Shown: positions 1 to 13,924 of the stretch, one piece after another
Layout: each line of letters begins with the position of its first letter
How positions within the stretch are numbered: the first letter of the stretch is position 1
Origin: an uncultured Campylobacter sp.
Lineage (GTDB): Bacteria > Campylobacterota > Campylobacteria > Campylobacterales > Campylobacteraceae
NCBI RefSeq assembly: GCF_947255105.1
Contig: NZ_CAMYFP010000002.1
Span: forward strand, 84,120-148,119
Length of the DNA: 64,000 nt
Direction of reading: 5' to 3'
Made by a program: the position numbers and the translations under genes
Notes under the pieces: generated by a model
Database searches by the model: none
Told to the model about the DNA's origin: nothing
What the model saw: the letters and a program-made list of their open reading frames with translations, nothing else

Positions 1-1105
1 CAACTATCAAAATATCTCCAAGTTTTTTTGCCTTGTTTAGATACTTGATGTGACCAGCGTGCAAAATATCAAAGCAACCATTTGTAAAAACTATCTTTTT
101 ATCACTATTTTTTAGAATTTGGCAAATTTCATCTAAGCTTTTTATTTTTTCTTCCAAGTTTGTGCTTGATGATGATTTGGAGTATTTTTCTATCTCATCT
201 AAACTAGCAGTCGCACTTCCTACTTTTCCAACTACAACGGCAGCGGCTTTGTTTGCAAGACTAAGAGCAGAAACTATGTCCATTTTATTTGACAAAGCAT
301 ACCCCAAAGTCGCAAGCACCGTATCTCCAGCGCCAGTTACATCAAAAACCTCTTTTGCAATTGCCGGTATGATTTTTACTTCATCGTTGTTGTATAGCGC
401 AATGCCCCGCTCAGAAAGAGTTATGATGGAATATTTTAAATTTAATTCATCTTTAAGTCTTTTTAAGGCTAATTTTAGTGAAGGTTCATCATCAATTTTC
501 ATCTTTAAAGCTTGCATTGCCTCTTTTAAATTTGGTGTTAGAAGTGTTGCATTTTTGTATTTGGAGTAGTCACTTCCTTTTGGATCTATCAAGATAAATT
601 TAGAGTTTTCATTTGCTATTTTTATGATTTGCTTACAAAAATCGTCTCTTAAAACGCCTTTTGCATAGTCACTGAGCAAAACAGTGTCATAGTTTTTGAT
701 GATATTTTTCAAAGAGCTTAAAAGCTCATTTTTGGAAGTTTCTAAAATATCATCTTTACTCTCCTTATCAAACCTTATAACTTGCTGATGAACTGCCATA
801 ATGCGAGTTTTATGAGCACTTTTTCTCTCTTTTTCTTTTGCTATTTTCTCAATCTTTACACCCATATTCTCAAGCATTGAAACTATCTCTTTGCCGGACT
901 CATCATCACCAACGACACTCATCACGCCAACATCACAATCAAGAGCTTTTAAATTTGCCATTACATTTCCAGCTCCGCCTAGACGCTTGTTTTCGCTCCT
1001 AATATCAATAACCGCAACAGGCGCTTCAGGGGAAATTCTATCACACTCGCCCCACAGATAGTGATCTATCATCAAATCGCCAACAACTAAAATCTTAGGC
1101 TTCAT
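1..1105 (-). CDS. hldE: Bifunctional heptose-7-phosphate kinase / heptose-1-phosphate adenylyltransferase HldE (RfaE). Partial: the C-terminus runs off the window edge.
   Basis: Reverse-strand translation from the ATG at 1105 reads [30 protein letters not shown]..., matching the HldE kinase N-terminus. The frame stays open to position 1. It overlaps the hldD stop by 11 nt. Confidence 0.8.
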
Positions 1106-2075
1106 TTTTTATACTTTCATATATTTTTTTAATCTCAGGAATATAGCTTTTAATTCCATCTTCAAGACTAAATTTAGGCTCATAAGAGAGATTTTGCTTG
1201 CTTAGAGAAATATCAGCTTGTGTGTGGAATTGATACTGTTTGATAAATGGATTTTTGATATATTCACATTTTAAATTTGTATTAAGTTCGCTTTGTAAGA
1301 TATCAACAATTTCTTGAAAGCTCCTTGCAACTCCAGTAGCTGCGTTATAAACTCCACTTTTATCAGATAAAAATGCCAGATGATTGATTGCAACAATATC
1401 TTTTATATAGACAAAATCTCTTTTTATCTTATCGCTATCTTCAAAAAGCCTTGGATTTTGCCCATTTAAAATTTGAAGTCCAAACTGCAAAACCATAGAG
1501 GCGGTTTTATCTTTGAAAAACTCATTTTCACCATAAACATTAAAATATCTAAGCCCAATACAATGAATTTTTTCGTGATATTTTAAAGCTAGTTTATCCA
1601 TCATGAGTTTTGAAAAGCCATAAACATTTCTAGGTTCTTCACTATGCCAAATCTTTTGCGGACTTTTGGCGTTACCATAAGTTGCCGCTGAACTTGCATA
1701 AATCATCTTTGCATCAATTTCTTTGCAAATATCAAGAAGCTTTGCAAAGGCATTTAAATTTGTTTTTATCATTATGCTTTGATCATTTACCGTAGTGTCA
1801 GAGATGGCAGCTTCATGAAAAATTGCATCAGGTTTAAATTTCGCGATACCTTTAAGAGTTTTTTCATCATTTATATCGCCCTCTAAAACCCTGCCGCCAA
1901 ATTTAAGCAAGTTTTTATAGTGACCAAAACTCTTTAAGTTGCCATTATCAAATCTCTCACCCGTTCTAAAAATATCCACAACTAAAACATCAGCGCCTAA
2001 ATTTTCAAAATAAGTTGCCAAATTTGAACCTATAAAACCAGCCCCGCCAGTTATAACTATTTTTTTATTTTTCAT
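1095..2075 (-). CDS. hldD: ADP-L-glycero-D-manno-heptose 6-epimerase (NAD-dependent epimerase)
   Basis: 326 aa with an N-terminal GGAGFIGS Rossmann motif and the HldD/RfaD length and context. It sits between hldE and gmhB. Confidence 0.8.
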
Positions 2076-2607
2076 CTTTTTTCCTTATATAATTAACCAT
2101 TTCTTTAAGCTCATTTATGCAATGAAAGTCACCATTTGTGCTATTTTCATCTCTGTTCAGTAAAAACAAATTTTTAACTCCGGCATTTTTCCCAGCTTCG
2201 ATATCGCTTAGTTTATCGCCTATTAAGTAGGATTTTGAAAGGTCTATGCCAAGCTCATCTCTTGCTGCTAAAATCATTCCAGGGTTTGGTTTCCTGCACT
2301 CACAACCACTTAGATGAGGACAAAAATAAACTTTATCGATATCTATATCTCGCTTTTTAAACTCATCTTTCATATAGTCTGTTAAAATTTCAAAATCTTT
2401 TGTAGTGTAGTAGCCTCTTTGGATGCCGGATTGGTTAGTGATAATGATGATTAAAAAATCTCTTTTTTTAAACTCTTTTAAAAGCTCGAAAATTCCATCG
2501 ATAAATTTGAAATCTTCTATTTTAAAAACATATCCAAAATCTTCATTTATAACGCCATCTCTATCCAAAAATAGTGCCTTTTTTTCATAAGTTTTCATGA
2601 AAGACAT
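2065..2607 (-). CDS. gmhB: D-glycero-D-manno-heptose 1,7-bisphosphate phosphatase (HAD family)
   Basis: 180 aa with the HAD motif LFLDRDGVIN and a CPH...C Zn-loop. It overlaps hldD. Confidence 0.8.
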   Translation of the reverse strand: MSFMKTYEKKALFLDRDGVINEDFGYVFKIEDFKFIDGIFELLKEFKKRDFLIIIITNQSGIQRGYYTTKDFEILTDYMKDEFKKRDIDIDKVYFCPHLSGCECRKPNPGMILAARDELGIDLSKSYLIGDKLSDIEAGKNAGVKNLFLLNRDENSTNGDFHCINELKEMVNYIRKKDEK

Positions 2608-2653: not shown

Positions 2654-3170
2654 TTAGTAGCCCTCTTTATTGAGCTTTGCAAATGCATCACAACCTTGTT
2701 GAAAACCTAAGTCGCAAGCCTTGCCAAAATACTCCTTTGCCATGCTATAGTTCTGTCTTACACCTTGACCACTATAATATAAAGCCCCAAGATTGGCGCA
2801 ACCTAAATTCACTCCATTATCGCAAGCTAATTTATAGTATTTAAAAGCTTCTGTATAGCTTTGTCTCACACCTTGTCCACTCTCATATAAAAATCCAAGA
2901 TTGGTGCAACCTAAATACTCTCCATTATCACAAGCAATTTTAAAGTATTTAGAAGCTTCTGTGTAGCTTTGTCTCACACCTTGTCCACTCTCATATAAAA
3001 ATCCAAGATTATGACAACCTAAATACTCTCCATTAATTATCACAAGCAATTTTAAAGTATTTAAAAGCTTTTTGATAATCTCCTGCCTTATAAGCTTTGA
3101 GGGCAGTTTCAAATTCATCTGCGACTAAAACAGCACAGACAACAGATAGTAAAACTATAATCTTTTTCAT
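2654..3170 (-). pseudogene. Sel1-repeat / Hcp-like cysteine-rich secreted protein, frameshifted paralog of 3280..4116
   Basis: The N-terminus MKKIIVLLSVVCAVL...FKYFKIACDN (ATG at 3170) is interrupted near 3033-3040 by an extra 4 nt (ccattaattatcacaagc versus ccattatcacaagc in the neighbour). The downstream ORF 2654..3118 continues the Sel1 repeats in another frame. Confidence 0.7.
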
Positions 3171-3268
3171 CTTATACTCCTTTTTAAATTTTGGTTATTT
3201 CAGCATTTTTATTTTTTAAATATAAAATAGACCGCCAATACAAGAAAAATAAAACCTATTAATAATCT
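3171..3268. repeat. Copy 1 of a ~98-bp direct repeat; copy 2 is at 4117..4213
   Basis: Near-identical sequence (cttatactcctttttaaatt...aaaacctatta) upstream of both Sel1 genes. Copy 2 covers the 3' end of the DMT gene, so copy 1 is a truncated duplicate of that gene end. Confidence 0.8.
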
Positions 3269-3279
3269 ATAAAATATAG

Positions 3280-4116
3280 CTAGTAGCCATATTTGCCAAG
3301 TGTTGCAAATTCATTACAACCTTGTTGAGAACCTAAGTCGCAAGCCTTGCCATAATACTCCTTTGCCATGCTATGGCTCTGTCTCACACCTCGACCGCTC
3401 TCATATAAAAATCCAAGATTGGCACAACCTAAATTCACTCCATTATCACAAGCTAATTTAAAGTATTTAAAAGCTTCTTTGTAATTTTGCTCCACTCCTT
3501 GACCATTGCGATATAAAAGTCCAAGATTGTAACAACCTAAATAATTTCCATTATCACAAGCCAATTTACAGTATTTAAAAGCTTCTGTGTAGCTCTGTCT
3601 CACACCTTGACCACTCATATATAAAAATCCAAGATTATTACAACCTGAATACTCTCCATTATCACAAGCTAACTTATGGTATTTAGAAGCTTCTTTGTAG
3701 TTTTGCTCTATACCTTGACCATCGCGATATAAAATTCCAAGATTGTTGCAACCTAAATACATTCCATTTTCGCAAGCTAATTTATAGTGTTTAGAGGCTT
3801 CTGTGTAGCTCTGTCTCACACCTTGACCACTATAATATAAAAATCCAAGATTGTTGCAACCTAAATACTCTCCATTGTCACAAGCTAATTTATAGTATTT
3901 AGAGGCTTCTGTGTAGCTCTGTCTCACACCTTGACCACTATCATATAAAAATCCAAGATTGGTGCAACTTCTATATTTTTTATTGTCACAAGCTAATTTA
4001 TAGTATTTAAAAGCTTTTTGATAGTCTCCTGCTTCATAAGCCTTGCGGGCAGTTTCAAATTCATTGCCAAGCAAAACAGCGCAGACAACAGATAGCAAAA
4101 CTATAATCTTTTTCAT
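3280..4116 (-). CDS. Sel1-repeat / Helicobacter-cysteine-rich-protein (Hcp)-like secreted protein
   Basis: 278 aa with a signal peptide and 7 tandem ~36-aa repeats, each with paired Cys (KLACDNG.YLGC.NLG.LY..GQGV.Q). Confidence 0.8.
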   Translation of the reverse strand: MKKIIVLLSVVCAVLLGNEFETARKAYEAGDYQKAFKYYKLACDNKKYRSCTNLGFLYDSGQGVRQSYTEASKYYKLACDNGEYLGCNNLGFLYYSGQGVRQSYTEASKHYKLACENGMYLGCNNLGILYRDGQGIEQNYKEASKYHKLACDNGEYSGCNNLGFLYMSGQGVRQSYTEAFKYCKLACDNGNYLGCYNLGLLYRNGQGVEQNYKEAFKYFKLACDNGVNLGCANLGFLYESGRGVRQSHSMAKEYYGKACDLGSQQGCNEFATLGKYGY

Positions 4117-4213
4117 CTTATACTCCTTTTTAAATTTGGTTATTTTAGCATTTTTATTTTTTAAATATAAAATAGACTGCCAATATAAGAAAAATAAAAC
4201 CTATTATGTGATT
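4117..4213. repeat. Copy 2 of the ~98-bp direct repeat (see 3171..3268)
   Basis: Direct sequence comparison. Confidence 0.8.
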
Positions 4214-4522
4214 GATTCTTAAAGTTTCATTTCTAAAAACTAGCAGCGTAAATGCCGTAAATACAACTAGCGTAATAACTTCTTGCAAGACTTTTAGTTG
4301 CCATATATTAAACGCACCGCCATTTTCCACAAAGCCATATCTGTTTGCAGGAATTTGAAAACAATACTCAAAAAATGCAACTCCCCAACTAAGTAAAATT
4401 ATCCAAATAAGACTAAGTGAGCTAAAAGTTGGTAATTTACTAAGTTTTAAATGCCCATACCACGCAATTGTCATAAATATATTTGATAAAATTAGCAAAA
4501 TTATCGTGTAGTATGGCTTCAT
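4154..4522 (-). CDS. Small 4-TM DMT-family membrane protein (DUF486-like)
   Basis: 122 aa and hydrophobic. Its start overlaps the methylase stop by 4 nt. Confidence 0.5.
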   Translation of the reverse strand: MKPYYTIILLILSNIFMTIAWYGHLKLSKLPTFSSLSLIWIILLSWGVAFFEYCFQIPANRYGFVENGGAFNIWQLKVLQEVITLVVFTAFTLLVFRNETLRINHIIGFIFLILAVYFIFKK

Positions 4523-5334
4523 TTTAGTTCTTTAAAAATTTTAAAGTCATCAATTTTATTAAAAATTTTATCTCTGTTTTCATCAAGCTCTTTTTTTCTA
4601 GCTAAACTAATATCAATAAATTCTTTTTCTTTTTCAATTCCTATAAAATTTCGACCTAGTAAATTTGCAGCAATTCCAGTTGTAGAGCTTCCACTAAATG
4701 GATCACAGATAGTTGAGTTTTCATAACTTGCCATTAAAATAAGCCTAACTAAAAGCCTTAAAGGTTTTTGAGTTGGGTGTTTACCACAACTTTTTTCCCA
4801 AGGTGCAATGGCAGGAAAAGCCCAAACATCTTTCATCTGTTTATTGTCGTTTATCTTTTTCATAAGCTCATAGTTAAAAATGTGTTTGTGTTTTTCACTT
4901 TTTCTAGCCCAGATAATCTGCTCTGTTGAGTGAGTGAGATAACGACAACTGAAATTTGGTGGTGGATTTGTCTTTTGCCAAGTGATGATATTTAAAATTT
5001 TATAATCAAGCTTTTGTAATACCCTACCAATCGAAAAAATATTATGATAAGTCCCGCTAATCATAATCGAGCCGTTATCATTTAACGCATTTTTTGCTAA
5101 ATCAAGCCATTTCAAATTAAACTCATCAATCTCATCAATACCGAAACTTTTATCCCAAACGCCTTTATTTACGCTTACGATTTTTCCGCTTTGTATGCTA
5201 AGCCCATCGTTTGATAAAAAATACGGCGGATCTGCAAAAATAAGGTCAAATTTACTTTTAAATTTCGGCAAAATTTCAAAAGTATCACCATTATAAAGTG
5301 TAAATTTTTTATCATTGCTTATAAATTTAGCCAT
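4519..5334 (-). CDS. N6-adenine DNA methyltransferase, DpnA / M.MboIC-like (GATC family)
   Basis: 271 aa with the DPPY motif (FADPPYF). There is long colinear similarity to DpnA (SVNKGVWDK, ITWQKTNPPPNFSCRYLTHSTE, GKHPTQKP, DPFSGSSTTG). Confidence 0.8.
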   Translation of the reverse strand: MAKFISNDKKFTLYNGDTFEILPKFKSKFDLIFADPPYFLSNDGLSIQSGKIVSVNKGVWDKSFGIDEIDEFNLKWLDLAKNALNDNGSIMISGTYHNIFSIGRVLQKLDYKILNIITWQKTNPPPNFSCRYLTHSTEQIIWARKSEKHKHIFNYELMKKINDNKQMKDVWAFPAIAPWEKSCGKHPTQKPLRLLVRLILMASYENSTICDPFSGSSTTGIAANLLGRNFIGIEKEKEFIDISLARKKELDENRDKIFNKIDDFKIFKELK

Positions 5335-6154
5335 TTTTTACCTTGTCAATAAAGTCTTTTAAGTTGAATAAGTTGTAAATTTCAACACTTTTATAGGCTT
5401 CTTCAAGTTTGTTTTTGGCGCTTAACCAACCTTGTCCGTCTGTTATCCAAATAAATTTATATTTATTATTTAAAGAAATTTTTGCATTTAGTTCGTTGTA
5501 GCCTCTTGCAACTTCGTTTAGTTTTGAACCGCCTGAGTTATAGAAATTTGTCTCAATTAAATATGCAAAATTTTTAGATTTTATAACAAAATCAAATCTT
5601 TTTAGATCCTTTCCCAAATCCAAATCTACAAAATTAGTGCTTTGTACCTGTTTTTCATAATTAATTTTTTCTTTATCTAGTTTTTTGGCAATTAAATTTT
5701 CAAAATTTGTTCCGCCTCTATTTTTCCTAGCATTTGTATCTAAGCCTACCTCTATACCAAAAACATAATCATTTAAATTTTTAATTTCTGAGTTTTTGAA
5801 AATTTCTTCAAGCCCTGTTTGTTTGAAAAAATCATAAATTTGTTTTGGGTTTTCAAAATAGGCTTTTAAATCTACTAAACTTCCACATTCATCAAGTAGT
5901 TTTGTATTTTTATCTCGCACAGCAATCAACAAATTTAACACAGAAAAACACTCTTTATTTATGTTAAATAAAAACTGAATTTCTGACTTTAAATCCTGCT
6001 TATTTAGCAAATAATTTAATTGGTTTAAATGAATAGAGATCTTTTTTATGTTTGTAGAGCATTTTTTAAAATTTACAAAATAATCAAGTGTCGCATTTGT
6101 TTTTTGTAGAGTTTTTAAAAAATCATAAAATGAAATTTTGTTTTTCATTTTCAA
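5327..6154 (-). CDS. Type II restriction endonuclease, DpnII/MboI family (predicted GATC)
   Basis: 275 aa with DpnII-family motifs: GIEVGLDTNARKNRGG, KRFDFVI, LIETNFYNSGGSKLNEVARGY, WITDGQGW. It overlaps the valS stop and the M start by 4 nt at each end. Confidence 0.75.
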   Translation of the reverse strand: MKMKNKISFYDFLKTLQKTNATLDYFVNFKKCSTNIKKISIHLNQLNYLLNKQDLKSEIQFLFNINKECFSVLNLLIAVRDKNTKLLDECGSLVDLKAYFENPKQIYDFFKQTGLEEIFKNSEIKNLNDYVFGIEVGLDTNARKNRGGTNFENLIAKKLDKEKINYEKQVQSTNFVDLDLGKDLKRFDFVIKSKNFAYLIETNFYNSGGSKLNEVARGYNELNAKISLNNKYKFIWITDGQGWLSAKNKLEEAYKSVEIYNLFNLKDFIDKVKNG

Positions 6155-8766
6155 ACTTCCAAACTTCTTATCTCATTTTCAACTTTACTGAGTTGATCTT
6201 TTGCATTTTCTAGTCCTTCGCGGTTGGTTTGCACAACCTCAGCTGGGGCATTAGCGATAAATTTTTCATTTTTAAGCATTCCATCAAGCTTTAAAATCTC
6301 TTTTTCAAGCTTTGTTTTTTGTGCGTTAAGGCGTTTCAAAATTTCACTTAAATCAACTCCGCTTAAAGGTACAAAAACGCTTAAATTTTGACTTACATCA
6401 GCTACTGCGTCAGTTACTTTTTCATTTACAAATTTAACATCTTCGCATTTTGCAAGAAGTTTTATAAATTTGAGTTCATTTTCTAAATTTATACTTTCAT
6501 TTAGTTTGATATAAGCAAGTGGAATTTTTGAATTTCCTAAATCAATCGTAGCTTTTGCACGACGGATTGCTATAATACTTTCTATAATAAGGCTAAATTT
6601 TGCTTCGATGTCATCATTTTGCTTAGTAGATTTTGGATATGGCATTATCATAATTGAGTCTGAGTTTTGTAAATTTGTTCCGCTTAACTCATGCCACAAA
6701 TACTCACTCAAAAAAGGCATAAAAGGATTTAAAAGTTTCATAGCCTCTTTAAAAATTGCACCAAGTTCTTTAACTGCACTTTTTTGGGCCTTGCTTAGCT
6801 CAATTCCCCAGTCGCAAAACTCATCCCATAGGAATTTATAAATTTCATTTGCAGCATCGTTAAATCGGTATTCATCAAGGTTTTTTCTAGTTTCACTCAC
6901 GCAGTTTTGAAAACGAGAAAACATATAAGTTCCAAGCTCTGTTTTAAGCTCTAACTCGCTTAAATTTGGAAATTTATTTTCATTTAAAAGCAGGAATTTA
7001 TGAGCGTTGTAGAGCTTGTTTGTAAAATTTCTAACTTGAACTAACTTTTCCTCACTTAGCCTAATATCGCGCCCTTGAATGCATAAAAGTGCTAAAGTAA
7101 AGCGCAAAATATCGGCACTATACTCATCAATTTTAACGAGTGGATCAATGACATTACCGCTACTTTTGCTCATTTTTTCGCCTGTTGCAGTTTTAACAAG
7201 AGCGTGAAGATAGATATCCTTAAATGGTAGTTTTTTTAGTGCATTTTCGCTTTGAAACATCATCCTTGCAACCCAAAAAAACAAAATATCAAAGCCAGTT
7301 ATTAACATTGTATTTGGGTAAAACTCTCTTAGGTCATTTTCAAACCATTTTTCGTTTTTATAGTTTTCATCATTGCCCCAACCAAGTGTTGAAAATGGCC
7401 AAAGTCCGCTACTAAACCAAGTATCAAGGACATCATGATCTTGATAGAAATTTTTGCTTTTACATTTTGGACAACATGATGGATTTTCATCTTCATCCGC
7501 CCATTCATGACCACACTCATTGCAGTAAAATACAGGAATTTGATGCCCCCACCAAAGCTGTCTTGAGATACACCAATCCTTTAATTCTCTCATCCATGCG
7601 TTAAAACTATTTATCCAATGAGCTGGGAAAAACTGAGCTTCGCCATCATTTACAGCTTTTATGGCATCAGTTGCAATCTCTTTTTTTACAAACCACTGCT
7701 TTGAGATATATGGTTCAACGATATTTTTGCAGCGATAACAATATCCAACTTGATTGGTATAGTCTTCTGTTTTTTCAATATTGCCGATTTCTTGAAGTTT
7801 TGCTACAACTTTTTCTCTTGCGTCTAGTCTTTCAAGTCCTTTAAACTCACCACATTCATCGTTTAGTATACCTTTTTCATCAAAAATTGTAATAAACTCA
7901 AGGTTGTGGCGGTTGCCAACTTCATAGTCGTTTTGATCGTGCGCTGGAGTTACCTTTACCACGCCAGTTCCAAAACTCATATCAACATGCTCATCGGCAA
8001 TTATTTGAATTTCGCGACCAATTAGTGGTAAAACTACTTTTTTGCCAATTAGGCTAGTATATCTTTCATCGTTTGGATTTACCATAACAGCTGTGTCACC
8101 AAAGTAAGTTTCAGGGCGAGTTGTGGCAACTACTACAAACTCATCACTATCTTTTAAAAAATATCTTAAATAATAGAGCTTTCCAACATGCTCTTTGTGT
8201 TCAACTTCTACGTCACTTAGTGCTCCGTCGTGCGTGCACCAATTTACCATATAATTTCCGCGGATTATAAGACCTGAGTTATAAAGACTTACAAATGCCT
8301 TTCTAACAGCACTTTTAAGCCCATCGTCCATTGTAAAACGAAGTCTTGACCAAGCAGGGGTAATGCCTAGTTTTCTCATCTGTTTTAGGATAGTGCCGCC
8401 ACTTTCTTCTTTCCATTTCCAAATTTCATCAACGAATTTTTCACGCCCAAGACTCTCTTTTGTGATACCTTTTGCTAAAAGTTTTTTTTCAACAACATTT
8501 TGAGTTGCTATTCCTGCGTGATCCATACCTGGTTGATAGAGTGTTTTAAAGCCGTCCATTCTTTTGTAACGAGTCATAATATCTTGCAAGGTAAAAGTTA
8601 AAGAATGTCCGATATGAAGCACTCCTGTGACATTTGGTGGTGGCATCATAATACAGAATTTTTTTCCATTTTGGATATTTTTATTGCCATCAACTTCAAA
8701 ATAGCCTCTGTTTTCACAAATTTGATAATATTTTTCTTCAATATCTTTTGGGTTGTAAAAATCCAC
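6151..8766 (-). CDS. valS: Valine--tRNA ligase
   Basis: 871 aa with the HIGH motif (PPNVTGVLHIGH), a KMSKS motif (KMSKSSGN) and a C-terminal coiled coil. Confidence 0.95.
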   Translation of the reverse strand: MDFYNPKDIEEKYYQICENRGYFEVDGNKNIQNGKKFCIMMPPPNVTGVLHIGHSLTFTLQDIMTRYKRMDGFKTLYQPGMDHAGIATQNVVEKKLLAKGITKESLGREKFVDEIWKWKEESGGTILKQMRKLGITPAWSRLRFTMDDGLKSAVRKAFVSLYNSGLIIRGNYMVNWCTHDGALSDVEVEHKEHVGKLYYLRYFLKDSDEFVVVATTRPETYFGDTAVMVNPNDERYTSLIGKKVVLPLIGREIQIIADEHVDMSFGTGVVKVTPAHDQNDYEVGNRHNLEFITIFDEKGILNDECGEFKGLERLDAREKVVAKLQEIGNIEKTEDYTNQVGYCYRCKNIVEPYISKQWFVKKEIATDAIKAVNDGEAQFFPAHWINSFNAWMRELKDWCISRQLWWGHQIPVFYCNECGHEWADEDENPSCCPKCKSKNFYQDHDVLDTWFSSGLWPFSTLGWGNDENYKNEKWFENDLREFYPNTMLITGFDILFFWVARMMFQSENALKKLPFKDIYLHALVKTATGEKMSKSSGNVIDPLVKIDEYSADILRFTLALLCIQGRDIRLSEEKLVQVRNFTNKLYNAHKFLLLNENKFPNLSELELKTELGTYMFSRFQNCVSETRKNLDEYRFNDAANEIYKFLWDEFCDWGIELSKAQKSAVKELGAIFKEAMKLLNPFMPFLSEYLWHELSGTNLQNSDSIMIMPYPKSTKQNDDIEAKFSLIIESIIAIRRAKATIDLGNSKIPLAYIKLNESINLENELKFIKLLAKCEDVKFVNEKVTDAVADVSQNLSVFVPLSGVDLSEILKRLNAQKTKLEKEILKLDGMLKNEKFIANAPAEVVQTNREGLENAKDQLSKVENEIRSLEV

Positions 8767-8827
8767 TTTAAACTTCCTTTTCTTATAAAAATAGCTTAAT
8801 ATTAGCTAAATTTGGCTTAAAATTCAT

Positions 8828-11800
8828 TTATTTAACCTTGATTTCATAAGCTTCAAGGCTATAATCATTTATCTTTTCATCATACATTGACTCAGCGTTT
8901 GCTTGTGGAAGTTTGCAAGTTCCACTTAAAACAACTTTAAAAGGAGTATAAAATGTTATGCTTTCACCGCTATAAACAGGTGGTAAAAAGTCTGTTACAG
9001 AGCCATCTTTTATCTCTTTGTGAACCATTAAGATATCATCTTTAAGTCTTTTATCTCTTATGTTTTGGATAATTCTTTCATTGACTATCTCAAGGCAAGA
9101 TGGGACTTTTTGATAGACTAAGATGTCATTAAAGTTTTGATTGAACTTAAGTGTAATTTTGGCAAATATCAAATCATTTATTTTTAAATTTGCTAAATCA
9201 ACTAAGTTTCCACTACTATCTACAAATTCCCTCTTTATGTTTAAACTCTTCATCTCTAAACTATTTTTAATAGGCTTTGGTTTGTAGTCATAGCTAATTA
9301 GCGAATAATAGGCTTTATTGCTTGACTCGATAGTTAAATTTCTATCTTTTAAGTCTATGTTTAAATTTGCATTTTGGCTAAACATATAGAGATCATCGCC
9401 ATTTTTTACCTTTATTTTTAAGCTTTTGTCTTTGACTTGTTCTTTTTCAAACTCGTTTATTGCTAAAAGAACAAAAGCTCTATCTTGGGTTGATTTAATG
9501 CTGTTTTTCAATAAAACTATCTCATTTAAAAGTTTTTGACTTAGCTCATCATCTTTCAAATATCTTAAATTTAGATAGAGCGAAAAGCTTAAATCTCTAA
9601 TTTTTGAGGCGAAATTTAGCTCTTTATTTTGCATTTTATCTATCTCAAAAGCCTTTATCTGCTCTTTTATGCTTTCTAACTCTTTGTTTAGTCCAGCATT
9701 TTTCAAAATAGCAGCTGTTAAGAAAAGCTTAAGCAAGTCATCTTTATAAAATTTATTGTCTAAAAGTAGATTTATCTTTTCATCTAAGTTGTTTTTTGAA
9801 TTTTGGCTTAAAATATACAAGGCGTAAATACTAGTTAAACTTGAGTTTATGCCCTTTTGTTTTAGGGATTTTAGAGCTTTGTTAAGTGAAATTTGCGGCA
9901 CTTCAAAGCCATTTTCTTTTAGAAGTAAAAGCGCGTGAGTTGCATAGGTACTAGAAAACTCATCTACATTTGAGTTGGCCCTCCAATATCCAAAGTCGCC
10001 ATTTTCATTTTGTAAAGCCAAAAGATCTCTTATGCCCAAATTTATGAAATTTTCTCTGTCTGTTTTGCCTGCTTTGTTTGCTGGGTTTAAAAACATAAGT
10101 GCTAGAAGTTGTGAGCTTTTTTGTTCGCTGCAGCCATACGGATAGTTTATGAGTTTATCCATCTCATCTATAAAAAGTGTTTGCAAATTTGATGAAATTT
10201 GAACTTTTACTTTATCTAATTTATCAAGCATAAACTCTTTTTTACCTTTAAGTATGCCGCTTTTTATCTCGGTATTTAATGAGCTTGGCTCTAAAATTTC
10301 AAAATTTAAATTTGTAGTTTTATCATCTATTGTGATATTTATATCTCCTTTTCCTAGGCTTAAAGCCTTTGTTTTTACAATAAGATCTTTAAAACTATTT
10401 TGTGCAATGCTTAAATTTTTATCATAAGAAAGCTCTAAATTTAGGCTTTTTGATAGAGTAATTTTTGGTTTTAACTCTTTGTCTGTGTTGTTAAAAATTT
10501 TAAAGACTAAATTTACTTCATCGCCATTTAAAAGATAGGCAATGAGTGGGACTTTAACTAAAATATCATCTTTTATCACTACAAAAGTGCTCTCTTCGCC
10601 GATTTGATTTTCATCAATGGCAATGGCGTCAAGGCGGATCTTTGTGTTGAGATTGGCTGGGATAAATTTGCTAAATTTAGCGGTGCCATTTTCATCAGCA
10701 ATTGCTGTTTGCATAAAGATAAAAGTATCGATTTTTTTATTTTCCAATGGATCTAGATATTTTTTCATAGCAGCACTTTTTAACATCTCGCCACTTCCAA
10801 ATTTAAGCACTTTTCCATCATTTATAAAGTTTGTAAGCTTGTCATAAATGTCAAAATCACTTCCTAAAACTGCTAATTTTGTCTTAAAAAACTCATAGCT
10901 TTTTGGACTTTTTTGATTAAGTAGATTTAAAATTCCCTCTTCAACTCCAAATAGGGCGATTTTGGTATTTGGTTTGGTGCGAACTTCAACTTCTAAATTT
11001 TGAGCAGATTTTACTAAATTTGGAGCTAAAATTTGTGGTCTGAGATTAAATTCGGAGCTGTTGTTTTCTATGTAAATTTGTTCCCATGCTTTAAATGGCA
11101 AGAAAGTTGAAGGAGTATCACTAAGTCTTAAAAGTTTGGCCTTTATATATCCACCTTTGAAATTTAGCGGCACTTTAAAGCTTAAATTTGTCGCTTTGCC
11201 AGATAGTTTTACTATCTTATAATCGATTAATTTATCACTCTCAAAGCTTACTAACATTAAAGGATCTTTTAGGGCTGAGCTAATAGTTACGGATATATTT
11301 TCATCATCATTATAGATGAGTTTATCGGTTTTTATTGAGGCTTTGCTAAGTCTTTTTGTAGGTACTAGCTCGTCACTTCCAAAGCCACTTACTTCAAAAC
11401 TTACCACGCTTTTATGAGAGCTGTTTAGATCCAAAACTTCAAGTTTATAGTTTCCAAAACCGGGATTTTTTATAGTTAAAAAATTATCTTTTATATCAAA
11501 ATCTTTAAGTTTGCTATCTTTTTTAAACCATGATAAAAAGCCCTTTTCATTGAGTGTGTAAATCCACTCCTCTTTGTATAGGCTAGCTTTTAAAGAGCTT
11601 TTTGTCTCATTTAGAGTTACAGGGTCGATAGTTATAAAACTAGCTTTTAGATCTTGGTTTTGATCTAGGATATTTTTCTCTAAATTTATGCCAACAATGC
11701 TTTTAAATGGATAAAGCTTACTTTGCGAATATCCAGCTACATTTTTGCCACTGTCATTTAGTAAAAAACTTGCTTTGATGTTTATAACTGAGTTTAGCGG

Positions 11801-13924
11801 GGCGTTAAAAGTTGGTAGGATGAGAATTTTAGAACTTGCATTTTCATCTAATAATATAGTTTTTTCATCAAAATATAAATCTTTTTCATTTAAAGAGTTG
11901 TCATCAAAAGTATAATCTTTGAATTTATCATTTTTAAAGGTGCTATTTAAAAAAGATACGCTTAAATCGCCGCTTAAATTTGAGGCATTTTGACCAAAGA
12001 GATAATTTGCACTCAAATTCAAAAGTGGTTTTTCATCTTTTGTATAAAATTCTTTGCTAAATTTCACATTTACTTTTAAATTTTGTGGGATAAAAGACTC
12101 GATAAAAAAATCTTTTCTTGCTAAGATTTTATTTTCAAAGATAACTTCAAGCCTTTGTTTTCCACTTGTTTTAAAGCCTTTTTCTATTTTAAAATCTAGG
12201 CTTCCAAACTCATCTAATATAAAAGATTTTTCATAGATTTTAGAGTTTTGTGCGTCATAAACCCTAACTTTTATCGGCAAATTTTTAAGAGATTTAAAGT
12301 TTTCTTTAAGGACGATGATGCCTGAAATTTCGCTATTAGGTCTTATAATATCACTTGTTAAATAGACATAAGCTTTTGGTTTTTGAGTAGACTTTAGATT
12401 TTGAAACAAAACATCTGCACCCTTTGAAGTGCTTTCTACTGGTTCTTGAGTAGTATTTGTATTTTGAAACTCATCTAATATAAGGAAATTTCTCTCATTA
12501 TTTAAATTTGCCAAAATAGACTTTGGTTTTTTATCAATTATGTTTTTTTGACTAAACTTAAAGACACCTTTTTCATCGGTTATTCCTTTGGCAATGATTT
12601 TATTTTTATTTGAAAAAATGGTGATTTTGGCGTTTTTTACCACTTCATTGTTTGAAAGCCTGTTTACAAAAACAAAAATTTCATCTTTAAAAATCTTTGT
12701 ATGAAGTGCTAAATCACTATAGTAGATAAATTTATTTATACTTTTTAATCTCTCATCTTTGTCTTTATAGAAAATCTCAAGATTATAAATTCCATCTTTG
12801 TCAAAATCAAACTCCAAAAGAGTTTTTATCTCTTTGTTTGGCTCAAAATCAAGATGGAAATTTTGACTTTTTTCATCGCTAAAAGTAGTTTTGCCATCAT
12901 CGAAATTTAAAAAATATCTTAAATTTTCATCACTTATTTTTGTTAAAACAGTTTTTATCTCTTTTAAATTTATACTTTTTAGGGCGATTTTTCCCTTGCT
13001 TGAGATATATGGTTTGTCATCTAAAAACCAAATTTCAGGGGCAAAATCAGCTGTTTTTAGCCTAAATTTCAGATCTTTTTTTAAAACTTTATAGTTTTTC
13101 TCGCCAAAACCTTTTTTAAGAGTTATCTCATACTCGCTATTGTCCTTTAAATCGCTACTTACGATATCAAAATAACTTTTGGAGTTTTCATATCCACTAT
13201 TTATGACTTTGAAATTTTGCGTATCATCGCAACTTACCAAAACGCTATTTAACCATAGATAATCATCCATATAGAGCCTAAAACCAAGCATTTTATCTGG
13301 ATATGAGAGTGGCTTGATAAGAGTGGTATCAAGTTCTAAAGTTTTAGAGCTTTTAAGTTCATCATCACTTTGGCTAAAACTATTTAAAATAGCGTCATTT
13401 TCTAAGGAACTATTTTTAGGATTTTTTACATTTTTAGAGATTTTTAAGGTGTAAGAATTGCTACTTAAAACTTCTATTATTGCCTCAGATGAGCTTAAAA
13501 TATGCAGTTTAAAAGGCACTATTTTTTCATCTAGAGTTATAGCTTTTATATTTTCTTTTAAATTTGTAACTTCATCATTAAAAGAGATAAAATATCTATT
13601 TTTATCCATTTGTTGAAATTTTTCTATTTGAAATTTATCGCTTTTAAAACTAATTTTTTCGTCATTGTATGAGCAGTTAAAAGTAGTCGATGTTGGCAGT
13701 ATTGTTTTTGAGTAAAAGGTTATAAGCTCATTACTTTCTTGATGAAAAATACCATCAATTTTAGGCTCACAAGTTATAAAATCATCCCTAAAAACTTTAC
13801 CAATTTTGGAGTTATCAAACGTTTTACTATAAAACTCAACTCTATCTTTATAAACTTTTATCTCATCTATGGCATTAGCAAAAATAAAATTTAAAACCAG
13901 TAAAAAAACAGCTACAAATCTCAT
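8828..13924 (-). CDS. Bacterial alpha-2-macroglobulin family protein (periplasmic)
   Basis: 1698 aa with a signal peptide and the thioester motif GCSEQ in YPYGCSEQKSS. It is paired with pbpC. Confidence 0.8.
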   Translation of the reverse strand: MRFVAVFLLVLNFIFANAIDEIKVYKDRVEFYSKTFDNSKIGKVFRDDFITCEPKIDGIFHQESNELITFYSKTILPTSTTFNCSYNDEKISFKSDKFQIEKFQQMDKNRYFISFNDEVTNLKENIKAITLDEKIVPFKLHILSSSEAIIEVLSSNSYTLKISKNVKNPKNSSLENDAILNSFSQSDDELKSSKTLELDTTLIKPLSYPDKMLGFRLYMDDYLWLNSVLVSCDDTQNFKVINSGYENSKSYFDIVSSDLKDNSEYEITLKKGFGEKNYKVLKKDLKFRLKTADFAPEIWFLDDKPYISSKGKIALKSINLKEIKTVLTKISDENLRYFLNFDDGKTTFSDEKSQNFHLDFEPNKEIKTLLEFDFDKDGIYNLEIFYKDKDERLKSINKFIYYSDLALHTKIFKDEIFVFVNRLSNNEVVKNAKITIFSNKNKIIAKGITDEKGVFKFSQKNIIDKKPKSILANLNNERNFLILDEFQNTNTTQEPVESTSKGADVLFQNLKSTQKPKAYVYLTSDIIRPNSEISGIIVLKENFKSLKNLPIKVRVYDAQNSKIYEKSFILDEFGSLDFKIEKGFKTSGKQRLEVIFENKILARKDFFIESFIPQNLKVNVKFSKEFYTKDEKPLLNLSANYLFGQNASNLSGDLSVSFLNSTFKNDKFKDYTFDDNSLNEKDLYFDEKTILLDENASSKILILPTFNAPLNSVINIKASFLLNDSGKNVAGYSQSKLYPFKSIVGINLEKNILDQNQDLKASFITIDPVTLNETKSSLKASLYKEEWIYTLNEKGFLSWFKKDSKLKDFDIKDNFLTIKNPGFGNYKLEVLDLNSSHKSVVSFEVSGFGSDELVPTKRLSKASIKTDKLIYNDDENISVTISSALKDPLMLVSFESDKLIDYKIVKLSGKATNLSFKVPLNFKGGYIKAKLLRLSDTPSTFLPFKAWEQIYIENNSSEFNLRPQILAPNLVKSAQNLEVEVRTKPNTKIALFGVEEGILNLLNQKSPKSYEFFKTKLAVLGSDFDIYDKLTNFINDGKVLKFGSGEMLKSAAMKKYLDPLENKKIDTFIFMQTAIADENGTAKFSKFIPANLNTKIRLDAIAIDENQIGEESTFVVIKDDILVKVPLIAYLLNGDEVNLVFKIFNNTDKELKPKITLSKSLNLELSYDKNLSIAQNSFKDLIVKTKALSLGKGDINITIDDKTTNLNFEILEPSSLNTEIKSGILKGKKEFMLDKLDKVKVQISSNLQTLFIDEMDKLINYPYGCSEQKSSQLLALMFLNPANKAGKTDRENFINLGIRDLLALQNENGDFGYWRANSNVDEFSSTYATHALLLLKENGFEVPQISLNKALKSLKQKGINSSLTSIYALYILSQNSKNNLDEKINLLLDNKFYKDDLLKLFLTAAILKNAGLNKELESIKEQIKAFEIDKMQNKELNFASKIRDLSFSLYLNLRYLKDDELSQKLLNEIVLLKNSIKSTQDRAFVLLAINEFEKEQVKDKSLKIKVKNGDDLYMFSQNANLNIDLKDRNLTIESSNKAYYSLISYDYKPKPIKNSLEMKSLNIKREFVDSSGNLVDLANLKINDLIFAKITLKFNQNFNDILVYQKVPSCLEIVNERIIQNIRDKRLKDDILMVHKEIKDGSVTDFLPPVYSGESITFYTPFKVVLSGTCKLPQANAESMYDEKINDYSLEAYEIKVK

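What the first reader, a model, noticed from the sequence alone, without database searches (positions are those of the whole stretch)
4154..8766. DpnII/MboI-type restriction-modification pair inserted with 4-nt overlaps between valS and a small DMT gene
valS, the REase, the methylase and the DMT gene are stitched together by ATGA-type overlaps at 6151-6154, 5327-5334 and 4519-4522. The mobile-looking R-M pair therefore sits inside a housekeeping transcription unit and is probably translationally coupled to an essential gene. That is a good way to make it hard to lose. Only a DpnA/M.MboIC-type methylase is present; this family can methylate single-stranded DNA. No Dam/DpnM-type partner is in the window. 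That matters in a naturally transformable organism.
Basis: partly seen in the sequence, partly recalled or inferred. Interest (0 to 1): 0.55.

Follow-up and report, generated by a model that had tools for sequence, protein, structure and literature searches.

The report
GATC restriction cassette in a swappable defence slot
An ordinary two-gene restriction-modification system (predicted to target GATC) sits between the valyl-tRNA synthetase gene and a small membrane-protein gene of a Campylobacter ureolyticus-like bacterium, in a slot that holds nothing, or other anti-phage systems, in related strains and that is exchanged between species.

Summary
The genes are real: valS (6151-8766), a DpnII-family endonuclease (5327-6148), a DpnA/M.LlaDCHIB-type m6A methylase (4519-5334) and a DMT_6 gene (4154-4522), all on the minus strand. 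Two of the three claimed overlaps hold: ATGGCTAA between R and M, and ATGA between M and DMT_6. The valS/REase "overlap" needs a non-conserved TTG. The conserved start is ATG 6148, 2 nt after the valS stop.

The "hard to lose" idea is contradicted. Among fetched C. ureolyticus-type loci, 18 have valS joined directly to DMT_6, 4 carry this R-M pair, 1 carries Kiwa and 2 carry PD-T4-4. C. portucalensis has a PabI-type R-M there. All 25 C. hominis-type loci carry the R-M pair, 3 of them decayed.

The last ~390 nt of valS, the cassette and DMT_6 are 93-100% identical between C. ureolyticus and C. hominis, while the rest of valS is 77%. One allele pair differs at 3 of 1994 nt. The ATGA overlap comes from an allele-specific +1 frameshift.

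A single DpnA-type methylase is the normal epsilonproteobacterial layout (as described for HpyIII). This is a new member of known kinds: an R-M cassette at a small, integrase-free defence slot.

The parts
6151..8766 (-). valS (valine-tRNA ligase, 871 aa). Its last ~390 nt belong to the tract shared between species.
   Evidence: NF004349, 1113 bits; the 5' part is 77% identical to C. hominis and the last 390 nt are 93-97% identical.
6151..6163 (-). Left junction: the variable valS tail (..S LEV*). The last few codons and the stop of valS differ with the cassette present: LEV/LEI/LDV with this R-M pair, LKN in empty sites, LKNE with Kiwa, LEKAK with PD-T4-4.
5327..6148 (-). DpnII-family type IIP restriction endonuclease, 273 aa, start ATG 6148. 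TTG 6154 is an unlikely alternative start.
   Evidence: PF04556, 310 bits; PADLOC REase_II, 286 bits; 37% identical to R.LlaDCHI; the RFD, IETN(F/Y)Y and GGSKL blocks are conserved; 273-aa public calls.
5327..5334 (-). 8-nt R/M overlap ATGGCTAA (methylase ATG inside the end of the REase gene). Overlaps of 8-11 nt recur in the C. hominis, C. fetus and C. sputorum homologues.
4519..5334 (-). Beta-class N6-adenine DNA methyltransferase of the DpnA/M.LlaDCHIB type, 271 aa. DPPY at residues 35-38 and DPFSGSSTTG at 211-220. Predicted specificity is GATC.
   Evidence: searches (PF01555, 197 bits; 56% identical to the M2 methylase of pSRQ700; CcrM 180 bits; H. pylori 'DpnA' 5hek 115 bits; motifs invariant), PMC4687069.
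4960..5260 (-). Mosaic patch in the methylase gene: 78-84% nt identity to the C. hominis allele, inside a tract that is otherwise 91-99% identical. Differences are mostly synonymous, since the proteins are 95% identical.
4546..4546 (-). Extra C (GATGAC versus GATGA-T in 269-aa alleles). It frameshifts the methylase tail so that it ends on the TGA of ATGA instead of the TAA one base before the DMT_6 start.
4523..4534 (-). Right junction 'leader' TAAAGAACTAAA just before the DMT_6 ATG. The same bases end valS (LKN*) in empty sites, end the 269-aa methylase alleles (LKN*), and end a relic of a PabI-family REase in PD-T4-4 alleles.
4154..4522 (-). DMT_6 (DUF486) small membrane protein, 122 aa. It is the right flank of the slot and part of the tract shared between species.
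   Evidence: PF04342, 139 bits; 95-100% nt identity between species.
4200..6530 (-). Approximate extent of the tract that is 91-99% identical to C. hominis, against 72-86% for the rest of valS and about 45-55% for the A2M gene.

Best explanation
Window 4519-6148 is an intact two-gene type IIP restriction-modification cassette. It consists of a DpnII/MboI-family endonuclease followed by a single DpnA/M.LlaDCHIB-type m6A methylase, and its predicted target is GATC. The host is a Campylobacter ureolyticus-like genome.

The cassette occupies a polymorphic slot between valS and a DMT_6 gene. Cassettes in this slot have no evident promoter of their own, no terminator, no integrase and no flanking repeats. 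They point the same way as the flanking genes. They supply the last codons and the stop of valS on one side, and on the other side they run into a short fixed leader before the DMT_6 start. Expression is therefore most likely by read-through from valS (inferred). Methylase translation is likely coupled to the REase through the 8-nt overlap (inferred).

The slot turns over by homologous recombination in its conserved flanks, which are the last ~390 nt of valS and the DMT_6 gene. This is presumably driven by natural transformation (inferred). It produces empty, DpnII-type R-M, Kiwa, PD-T4-4 and PabI-type R-M states, and it crosses the C. ureolyticus / C. hominis species boundary. This resembles the 'cassette mechanism' of the pneumococcal dpn locus (my knowledge, not checked here).
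For: Gene identities.

Organism: the valS protein falls in the C. ureolyticus 90% cluster.

Empty sites: valS stop, one base, then the DMT_6 ATG, in 18 C. ureolyticus-type loci.

Other occupants of the slot: Kiwa KwaA/KwaB in L096 (E 6e-6 and 4e-12). PD-T4-4 A/B in L212 and L213 (352 and 32 bits). In C. portucalensis L003, a type II methylase (338 bits) plus a PabI-family REase (PF09522, 123 bits), preceded by two unknown ORFs.

Same layout in C. hominis: 25 of 25 fetched loci.

Interspecies tract: the valS 5' part is 77% identical, against 93-97% for the valS 3' 390 nt and 95-100% for DMT_6. L111 (C. ureolyticus) and L109 (C. hominis type) differ at 3 of 1994 nt across RE-MT-DMT_6. The identical 269-aa methylase occurs in both species.

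No mobility signatures: no terminator-like sites in 3900-9100 and promoter-like hits at the chance level. No junction repeats beyond AT-rich chance matches.

Relic evidence that the slot was occupied before: the PD-T4-4 allele reads ...LAKTHKHDCLEILNYILKN* in the frame ending 1 nt before the DMT_6 ATG. The C. portucalensis PabI-type REase ends ...LSKAHKYDCLEILNYIIQGNK*.

The same R-M2 pair is wedged into other housekeeping gene strings elsewhere: carB|R-M|nadC in C. fetus, with an ATGA overlap to carB. In C. sputorum it lies between the genus-wide D12 methylase and purH.

GATC assignment: PF04556 family membership. In addition, C. coli SMRT data assign 99.66% m6A at GATC to a dpnA-type gene homologous to H. 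pylori hp0092 of the MboI-isoschizomer HpyIII system (PMC4687069). GATC is at 0.55 of expectation in the window.
Against: No transcript, methylome or enzyme data exist for this organism. Specificity and activity are inferred from homology only.

GATC depletion is no stronger than for several other palindromes (GGCC 0.24, GTAC 0.35, CATG 0.36), so it is not specific evidence.

Campylobacter promoters are poorly captured by the sigma-70 scan, so an internal promoter in the valS 3' end cannot be excluded.

The slot-state counts come from look-ups seeded with particular proteins and are not population frequencies.

Whether the event that separates R-M+ from empty alleles was an insertion or a deletion is unresolved. 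valS tails SLEV, SLKN and SLEN all occur in relatives.

The Kiwa assignment rests on weak scores.

Natural competence of C. ureolyticus and C. hominis was not examined.
Confidence: 0.8

Rival explanations
1. The R-M pair is an addictive element that has locked itself into an essential operon by translational coupling to valS, so that it is hard to lose.
For: The valS stop lies 2 nt before the REase ATG, with a GGAAG Shine-Dalgarno-like motif inside the valS tail. There is no terminator-like site. The C. fetus homologue overlaps carB by ATGA. All 25 fetched C. hominis-type loci carry the pair.
Against: 18 C. ureolyticus-type loci have a clean valS-DMT_6 junction and 3 have other defence cassettes. 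REase-truncated alleles exist (L118, 207 aa; L218-220, 233 aa), and so do fragmented REase genes in C. showae. So loss, replacement and decay all happen without damaging valS. The valS tail is simply re-supplied by whatever follows it.
Confidence: 0.15
2. The pair is functionally an orphan (epigenetic) GATC methylase with a dead or silenced REase, kept for gene regulation rather than defence.
For: The methylase is much more conserved across the genus than typical R-M genes: about 80% aa identity in C. fetus, C. curvus, C. showae and C. sputorum, with long invariant blocks. In C. showae the methylase is intact beside REase fragments. Truncated REase alleles occur in C. hominis.
Against: In the window the REase ORF is full length. 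It matches the DpnII profile end to end at 310 bits. It keeps the blocks shared with R.LlaDCHI, the REase of a described lactococcal R-M system. It is 94% identical to the C. hominis protein, with the R/M overlap preserved.
Confidence: 0.15
3. The cassette moves as part of a conventional mobile element (transposon, integrative element or phage) rather than by flank-mediated homologous recombination.
For: R-M genes are often linked to mobility genes in other genomes (PMC2853133). A 71%-identical methylase pseudogene lies on a C. jejuni record in the plasmid collection.
Against: No integrase or transposase gene lies in or next to the slot in any state. There are no terminal inverted repeats or target duplication at the junctions. 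High identity extends into both flanking core genes, with a sharp drop about 390 nt into valS, which is the signature of homologous exchange.
Confidence: 0.05

Closest known systems
HpyIII / HpyAIII R-M system of Helicobacter pylori (hpyIIIR-hpyIIIM, hp0091/hp0092), an MboI isoschizomer, and its C. coli homologue
   Same: A chromosomal system in a naturally competent epsilonproteobacterium with one DpnA-type methylase. GATC m6A is assigned to the dpnA-type gene in C. coli BfR-CA-9557 and to hp0092 in H. pylori. The locus is polymorphic in H. pylori, where hpyIIIR is absent and hrgA is found in some strains (PMC4687069). The R-then-M two-gene order in H. pylori is my recollection.
   Different: No H. 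pylori sequence was compared here, so the relationship is through the literature only. The genomic site (valS|DMT_6) and the alternative occupants (Kiwa, PD-T4-4, PabI-type R-M) are different.
DpnII system and the dpn cassette locus of Streptococcus pneumoniae (dpnM-dpnA-dpnB; alternative DpnI and DpnIII cassettes)
   Same: A DpnII-family REase and a DpnA-type methylase. Alternative, unrelated cassettes lie between the same flanking sequences and are exchanged by transformation (the cassette mechanism is my knowledge; the DpnA role is in PMC3573125; DpnIII at the same locus is in PMC4471560, listed).
   Different: There is no DpnM (Dam-class) methylase. The gene order is R-M2 rather than M1-M2-R. 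No competence-regulated promoter is evident. The cassettes are fused to the flanking coding sequences.
LlaDCHI (LlaII) system on Lactococcus lactis plasmid pSRQ700
   Same: The window methylase is 56% identical over 236 aa to the plasmid's second methylase. The REase is 37% identical over 274 aa.
   Different: pSRQ700 is a plasmid-borne three-gene cassette with a Dam-class first methylase. The window has two chromosomal genes.
Core defence hotspots and R-M indel/substitution loci (P. aeruginosa cDHS1/2; R-M allelic substitutions in Helicobacter, Campylobacter and Neisseria)
   Same: Conserved core genes flank a site that carries different immune systems in different isolates (PMC10250203). R-M loci are frequently indel or substitution polymorphisms between conspecific genomes (PMC2853133).
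   Different: The slot here holds one small system at a time (0-3 kb). It lies inside a co-oriented gene string with shared stop and start codons. It shows no mobile-element genes. It is shared at near identity by two species.

Membership tests
DpnII-family type IIP restriction endonuclease (PF04556) | Full-length match to the family profile above the curated cut-off | tested here: met
   310 bits against a cut-off of 23, profile positions 2-276 of 278. PADLOC REase_II, 286 bits.
DpnII-family type IIP restriction endonuclease (PF04556) | Conservation of blocks shared with the REase of a described family member (R.LlaDCHI) | tested here: met
   37% identity, with the RFD, IETN(F/Y)Y, GGSKL and W(I/V)TDGQGW blocks aligned.
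DpnII-family type IIP restriction endonuclease (PF04556) | Cleavage of unmethylated GATC | not testable with these tools
   Inferred from family membership and from the C. coli / H. pylori literature.
DpnA / M.LlaDCHIB-type (beta-class) m6A methylase | Beta-class motif order: DPPY near the N-terminus and the AdoMet-binding FxGxG-like motif near the C-terminus | tested here: met
   DPPY at 35-38 and DPFSGSSTTG at 211-220, invariant in 14 homologues. PF01555, 197 bits.
DpnA / M.LlaDCHIB-type (beta-class) m6A methylase | Closest similarity to the second methylase of DpnII-like cassettes | tested here: met
   56% identity, E 5e-95, to the M2 gene of pSRQ700, which lies between a Dam-class methylase and a DpnII-family REase. 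The other Gram-positive plasmid hits are 50-57% identical and most also carry a DpnII-family REase.
DpnA / M.LlaDCHIB-type (beta-class) m6A methylase | Methylation of single-stranded DNA | not testable with these tools
   Known for pneumococcal DpnA (PMC3573125). That paper states that no ss-methylases had been identified in other transformable species.
Canonical three-gene DpnII system (dpnM-dpnA-dpnB) | A Dam-class (PF02086) GATC methylase in the cassette | tested here: not met
   valS abuts the REase. There is no further methylase-motif ORF in the window. The PF02086 gene next to the pair in C. sputorum belongs to a genus-wide ~365-aa family also present in C. jejuni, C. coli and C. lari, and on the window organism's own scaffold (P0239). 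It is therefore not a cassette component.
Canonical three-gene DpnII system (dpnM-dpnA-dpnB) | Gene order of methylases first, REase last | tested here: not met
   The order is REase then methylase, with an 8-nt overlap.
HpyIII-type two-gene GATC system of epsilonproteobacteria | REase followed by a single DpnA-type methylase | tested here: met
   The window and homologous pairs in C. hominis, C. fetus and C. sputorum.
HpyIII-type two-gene GATC system of epsilonproteobacteria | Sequence homology to hp0091/hp0092 | not tested
   No H. pylori sequence was available in the collections used. PMC4687069 reports 76% nt identity between the C. coli dpnA-type gene and hp0092.
Core defence hotspot / cassette locus | The same conserved flanking genes with different defence systems, or none, between them in different isolates | tested here: met
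   Five states between valS and DMT_6.
Core defence hotspot / cassette locus | Evidence of horizontal exchange of the occupied locus | tested here: met
   The flank-plus-cassette tract is 93-100% identical between species whose valS 5' part is 77% identical.
Transposon-like or long-target-duplication R-M insertion | Terminal inverted repeats or a direct duplication of target sequence at both junctions | tested here: not met
   Only AT-rich chance repeats were found, and none are at the junctions 4520-4540 / 6150-6165. The sole junction similarity is an 8-nt AAAATGAA around the two start codons.

The most novel reading that the evidence does not exclude
The valS|DMT_6 junction of the C. ureolyticus / C. 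hominis / C. portucalensis group is a minimal defence slot with no integrase and no evident promoter. Single anti-phage systems (GATC R-M, PabI-type R-M, Kiwa, PD-T4-4) are spliced seamlessly into an essential-gene transcript, borrowing the stop and start codons of their neighbours. They are swapped within and between species by transformation. The sole methylase of the GATC cassette is a DpnA-type enzyme. If it methylates incoming single strands as pneumococcal DpnA does, it would let R-M+ cells keep importing unmethylated heterologous cassettes. That would be the missing 'ss-methylase in another transformable species' noted by Johnston et al. 2013.
Probability: 0.3. Interest if true: 0.6.

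Novelty: new member of a known kind. Interest (0 to 1): 0.4.

Why it matters
The R-M pair itself is routine. The locus is useful for three reasons.

First, it is a compact, well-delimited natural example of defence-system turnover without any mobile-element machinery. The junctions are resolved to the base and there is a visible relic of an earlier occupant. This helps in studying how naturally competent bacteria shuffle immunity genes.

Second, it documents near-identical DNA shared by two human-associated Campylobacter species (3 differences in 2 kb).

Third, it offers isogenic-like natural variants (empty, R-M, Kiwa, PD-T4-4) for testing whether a lone DpnA-type methylase protects transforming DNA. 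It also corrects the intuitive but wrong idea that embedding next to an essential gene stabilises an R-M system.

Tried and rejected
1. TTG 6154 as the REase start. Rejected: it is not conserved in sister alleles, public calls use ATG 6148, and a Shine-Dalgarno-like GGAAG fits the ATG.

2. The idea that the methylase tail and the empty-site valS tail would show whether the R-M+/empty difference was an insertion or a deletion. This is unresolved. The shared TAAAGAACTAAA turned out to be a constant leader that is also present after a PabI-REase relic. valS tails in outgroups (SLENI, SLEVI) do not decide the question.

3. The C. sputorum PF02086 methylase upstream of the pair as a DpnM-type partner. 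Rejected: it belongs to a ~365-aa family present throughout the genus, including C. jejuni, C. coli and C. lari. From my own knowledge this is probably the RAATTY/CtsM-type enzyme.

4. PDB hits. The best is CcrM (GANTC enzyme, 180 bits), and the H. pylori entry named 'DpnA' scores only 115 bits. These names are not informative for specificity. There is no solved relative of the REase.

The species was identified through cluster members instead.

6. The metagenome scan with DMT_6 gave almost only distant homologues, plus one further empty site, L132.

7. BLASTP of the called 58-aa ORF of L212 against the PabI-type REase found nothing, because the relic lies in another frame. The frame ending at TAA shows it.

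8. The nucleotide-level relic alignment is only about 3 sd above shuffles. The claim rests on the 15 identical residues in the last 17 aligned positions, at the same distance from the DMT_6 ATG.

9. The promoter scan is uninformative: 19 hits against 21 expected.

Full report
**1. What is in the sequence**

On the minus strand the window carries, in order:
- an alpha-2-macroglobulin-like gene (8828-13924)
- valS (6151-8766, 871 aa)
- a 273-aa ORF (5327-6148)
- a 271-aa ORF (4519-5334)
- a 122-aa ORF (4154-4522)
- two Sel1-repeat genes further downstream

Family assignments:

| Gene | Best family match | Score |
|---|---|---|
| valS | NF004349 | 1113 bits |
| REase | PF04556 DpnII, profile positions 2-276 of 278 | 310 bits |
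| REase | PADLOC REase_II | 286 bits |
| Methylase | PF01555 N6_N4_Mtase | 197 bits |
| Methylase | PADLOC MTase_II | 337 bits |
| DMT_6 | PF04342 | 139 bits |

The exact proteins occur in public data as "uncultured Campylobacter sp.". Their 90% clusters are dominated by Campylobacter ureolyticus and, for the R-M genes, also by C. hominis.

**2. The junctions**

- R/M junction. The methylase ATG (5334-5332) lies inside the end of the REase gene, whose TAA is at 5329-5327.
- M/DMT_6 junction.
- valS/REase junction. The supposed overlap at 6151-6154 is TTGA and needs a TTG start. The first ATG is at 6148, 2 nt after the valS stop, with GGAAG 8 nt upstream. Public gene calls give 273 aa. Sister alleles read GTT TAA AA ATG and have no TTG. 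valS and the REase gene abut but do not overlap.
- The ATGA overlap with DMT_6 is allele-specific. Methylase alleles of 269 aa end ...DDLKFLK(N/G)*, with TAA, one base, then ATG. This tail agrees with the genus-wide consensus ...DLKFL.... The window allele and some C. hominis alleles carry one extra C (window 4546). It shifts the last nine codons to ...DDFKIFKELK* and moves the stop onto the TGA of ATGA.

**3. Type of R-M system**

- The methylase has the beta-class motif order: DPPY at 35-38 and DPFSGSSTTG at 211-220.
- Against the plasmid collection, its best non-Campylobacter relatives are methylases on plasmids of Gram-positive bacteria, and most of those plasmids also carry a DpnII-family REase.
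- On pSRQ700 (the LlaDCHI/LlaII plasmid, from my knowledge), the match is to the second of two methylases. That gene lies between a Dam-class "DNA adenine methylase" and the REase.
- Identity to pSRQ700 is 56% for the methylase (E 5e-95) and 37% for the REase (E 7e-50).
- "DpnII/MboI-type REase plus DpnA-type methylase" is therefore correct.
- PDB names are not helpful. The best hit is CcrM, and there is no solved REase relative.
- GATC specificity is inferred. PF04556 enzymes recognise GATC (family knowledge). In C. coli BfR-CA-9557, SMRT sequencing found 99.66% of GATC sites m6A-modified. REBASE assigned this to a dpnA-type gene homologous to H. pylori hp0092, the methylase of the MboI-isoschizomer HpyIII system (PMC4687069).
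- GATC is at 0.55 of its Markov expectation in the window. GGCC (0.24), GTAC (0.35), CATG (0.36) and ACGT (0.39) are lower still, so this is not specific evidence.

**4. Is the lack of a Dam/DpnM partner unusual?**

- No further ORF in the 64 kb has a methylase motif IV, apart from a C-terminal NPPY in an unrelated 669-aa ORF.
- All Campylobacter relatives examined have the same REase-then-methylase pair with an 8-11 nt overlap: C. hominis, C. fetus and C. sputorum. In C. showae the REase is fragmented.
- In C. sputorum a PF02086 methylase lies just upstream. That protein belongs to a ~365-aa family found at about 60% identity throughout the genus, including C. jejuni, C. coli and C. lari. It also occurs on the window organism's own 368,133-bp scaffold (P0239). 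It is a core gene next to which the pair happens to sit, not a DpnM partner.
- The one-methylase layout is therefore the regular epsilonproteobacterial form. The sole methylase must protect duplex DNA.
- Whether it also methylates single strands, as pneumococcal DpnA does (PMC3573125), cannot be tested here.

**5. The surroundings change the interpretation**

I looked up other alleles of DMT_6, valS and the methylase to see what lies between valS and DMT_6. The counts below are from look-ups seeded with particular proteins, so they are biased and are not population frequencies.

| valS type | Content of the slot | Loci fetched | Source calls |
|---|---|---|---|
| C. ureolyticus | Empty: valS ...RSLKN*, one base, DMT_6 ATG | 18 | 15, 16, 17, 55 |
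| C. ureolyticus | This R-M pair | 4, plus the window | 6, 24 |
| C. ureolyticus | Kiwa: 191 + 278 aa, KwaA E 6e-6, KwaB E 4e-12 (L096) | 1 | 16, 44 |
| C. ureolyticus | PD-T4-4: 450-aa AAA_15/21 ATPase + 188 aa, PD-T4-4_A 352 bits, PD-T4-4_B 32 bits (L212, L213) | 2 | 52, 53, 54 |
| C. portucalensis | Two unknown ORFs + type II methylase (338 bits) + PabI-family REase (PF09522, 123 bits), overlapping each other and both flanks | 1 | 12, 14, 44 |
| C. hominis | This R-M pair | 25, of which 3 are decayed | 19, 24, 26, 47, 68 |

The three decayed C. hominis-type loci (L218-220) have a 233-aa REase, a 244-aa methylase and no DMT_6. One further C. hominis-type allele (L118) has a 207-aa REase call.

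The slot is therefore a small defence-system hot spot. The R-M pair is readily absent, replaced or degraded. This contradicts the idea that it is "hard to lose".

**6. How the slot turns over**

- Against C. hominis, the window is about 45-55% identical in the A2M gene and 72-86% identical through most of valS.
- Identity jumps to 91-99% at about window position 6530. It stays there through the last ~390 nt of valS, the REase, the methylase (apart from a 78-84% patch at 4960-5260) and DMT_6, down to about 4200.
- In a multi-allele comparison, the valS 5' part separates the species cleanly: 77% between species and 94-98% within. The valS 3' 390 nt and DMT_6 are 93-100% identical regardless of species or slot state.
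- A C. ureolyticus assembly (L111, GCA_027277505.1) and a C. hominis-type contig (L109) differ at 3 of 1994 nt across RE-MT-DMT_6. The identical 269-aa methylase is annotated MULTISPECIES.
- No integrase or transposase gene appears in any state of the slot.
- There are no terminal inverted repeats or target duplications at the junctions.
- No terminator-like site lies in 3900-9100, and promoter-like matches are at the chance level.
- The simplest mechanism is homologous recombination in the two conserved flanks, which carries whatever lies between them. This is plausibly driven by natural transformation and includes transfer between the two species.
- This matches the indel and substitution classes of R-M polymorphism described for Helicobacter, Campylobacter and Neisseria (PMC2853133). 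It also matches the classical cassette mechanism of the pneumococcal dpn locus (my knowledge) and, more generally, core defence hotspots (PMC10250203).

**7. Anatomy of the junctions**

Left junction. All states share ...GAG ATA AGA AG. The last codons and the stop of valS then differ with the occupant:

| Occupant | valS tail after the shared S |
|---|---|
| This R-M pair | LEV*, LEI* or LDV* |
| PD-T4-4 | LEKAK* |
| Kiwa | LKNE* |
| C. portucalensis (PabI-type R-M) | LEVI* |
| Empty site | LKN* |

Right junction. All C. ureolyticus and C. hominis states except Kiwa share TAAAGAACTAAA directly before the DMT_6 ATG (window 4534-4523). This leader supplies the stop codon for whatever gene precedes it.

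Relic of an earlier occupant. In the PD-T4-4 allele, the frame that ends in this leader reads ...LAKTHKHDCLEILNYILKN*. The C. portucalensis PabI-type REase ends ...LSKAHKYDCLEILNYIIQGNK*. The two tails sit 16 and 17 nt respectively from the DMT_6 start.

- The leader therefore looks like a relic of an earlier PabI-type cassette.
- The "empty" sites look like deletion derivatives rather than a pristine ancestral junction.
- Whether the particular event separating R-M+ from empty alleles was an insertion or a deletion remains open.

**8. Embedding in housekeeping gene strings is a habit of this R-M family**

- In C. fetus the pair follows carB with an ATGA overlap and precedes nadC.
- In C. showae it also follows carB. 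There the REase is fragmented and a pair of genes with NmeDI_C and DpnD-PcfM domains lies upstream.
- In C. sputorum it lies between the genus-wide D12 methylase and purH, with overlaps or 2-nt gaps.
It shows nothing about stability.

**9. Verdict**

It is wrong on its main functional inference, that the pair is hard to lose.
- What is there is a new member of known kinds: an HpyIII-like two-gene GATC R-M cassette occupying a compact, integrase-free defence slot that is exchanged between C. ureolyticus and C. hominis.
- I found no paper describing this slot. Campylobacter searches for GATC methylation, for defence hotspots and for C. ureolyticus R-M genes turned up nothing on it.
- Shown here: gene families, junction sequences, slot polymorphism, the tract shared between species, and the relic.
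- Inferred: GATC specificity, read-through transcription, R-to-M translational coupling, transformation as the vehicle, and any ssDNA activity of the methylase.

Noticed in passing
window 2654-4116; also L083-L131 downstream of DMT_6: The genes just downstream of DMT_6 are Sel1-repeat (cysteine-rich, Hcp-like) proteins. Their number and size vary from strain to strain: ORFs of 170, 206, 242 and 278 aa, in one to three copies. This is a second hypervariable stretch next to the slot.
   Followed up: partly
window 1095-2607, compared with L083-L097: After the Sel1 genes, the window (and L001/L002) continues into heptose/LOS genes: a HAD phosphatase, an epimerase, then PfkB/CTP-transferase, SIS, Wzy_C and glycosyltransferases in L001. 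Other C. ureolyticus contigs continue into an ABC transporter with a NIL domain. So there is a rearrangement breakpoint here.
   Followed up: no
window 4960-5260: A roughly 300-nt patch of the methylase gene is only 78-84% identical to the C. hominis allele, inside a tract that is otherwise 91-99% identical. The changes are mostly synonymous. This suggests a mosaic of two diverged alleles of the same gene.
   Followed up: partly
L003 5687-6941 (C. portucalensis): Two ORFs with no family match precede the PabI-type R-M in the slot and overlap valS and each other. One is 266 aa. The other is 154 aa and hydrophobic, so probably a membrane protein. They may be an unrecognised defence or accessory module.
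   Followed up: partly
L214/L215 1778-4298 (C. showae-type): Downstream of carB lie a 236-aa protein with an NmeDI_C domain and a 63-aa DpnD-PcfM protein. These are followed by three fragments of the DpnII-family REase and an intact DpnA-type methylase. It looks like an REase-dead locus with a newly inserted gene pair. In the pneumococcus, DpnD belongs to the methyl-dependent DpnI cassette (my knowledge).
   Followed up: no
L218-L220 (C. hominis-type): A decayed allele: REase truncated to 233 aa, methylase called as 244 aa, and DMT_6 replaced downstream by short ORFs that include a Fic fragment.
   Followed up: no
whole window: Several 4-bp palindromes are strongly under-represented against a Markov expectation: GGCC 0.24, GTAC 0.35, CATG 0.36, ACGT 0.39, CGCG 0.42, GATC 0.55. 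From my knowledge, GTAC is the PabI-family target, which would fit past exposure to the PabI-type cassette.
   Followed up: partly
L099 1-1767: One C. ureolyticus-type contig shows only the C-terminal 257 aa of valS, preceded by an unrelated 291-aa ORF. This could be an assembly chimera or a disrupted copy.
   Followed up: no
L125 1734-2413 (C. jejuni record NZ_CP038863.1 in the plasmid collection): An unannotated, apparently disrupted copy of a methylase 71% identical to the window enzyme lies on an 86-kb linear record that also carries phage-like genes (DUF3310). Relatives of this methylase may therefore also travel on mobile DNA in C. jejuni.
   Followed up: no
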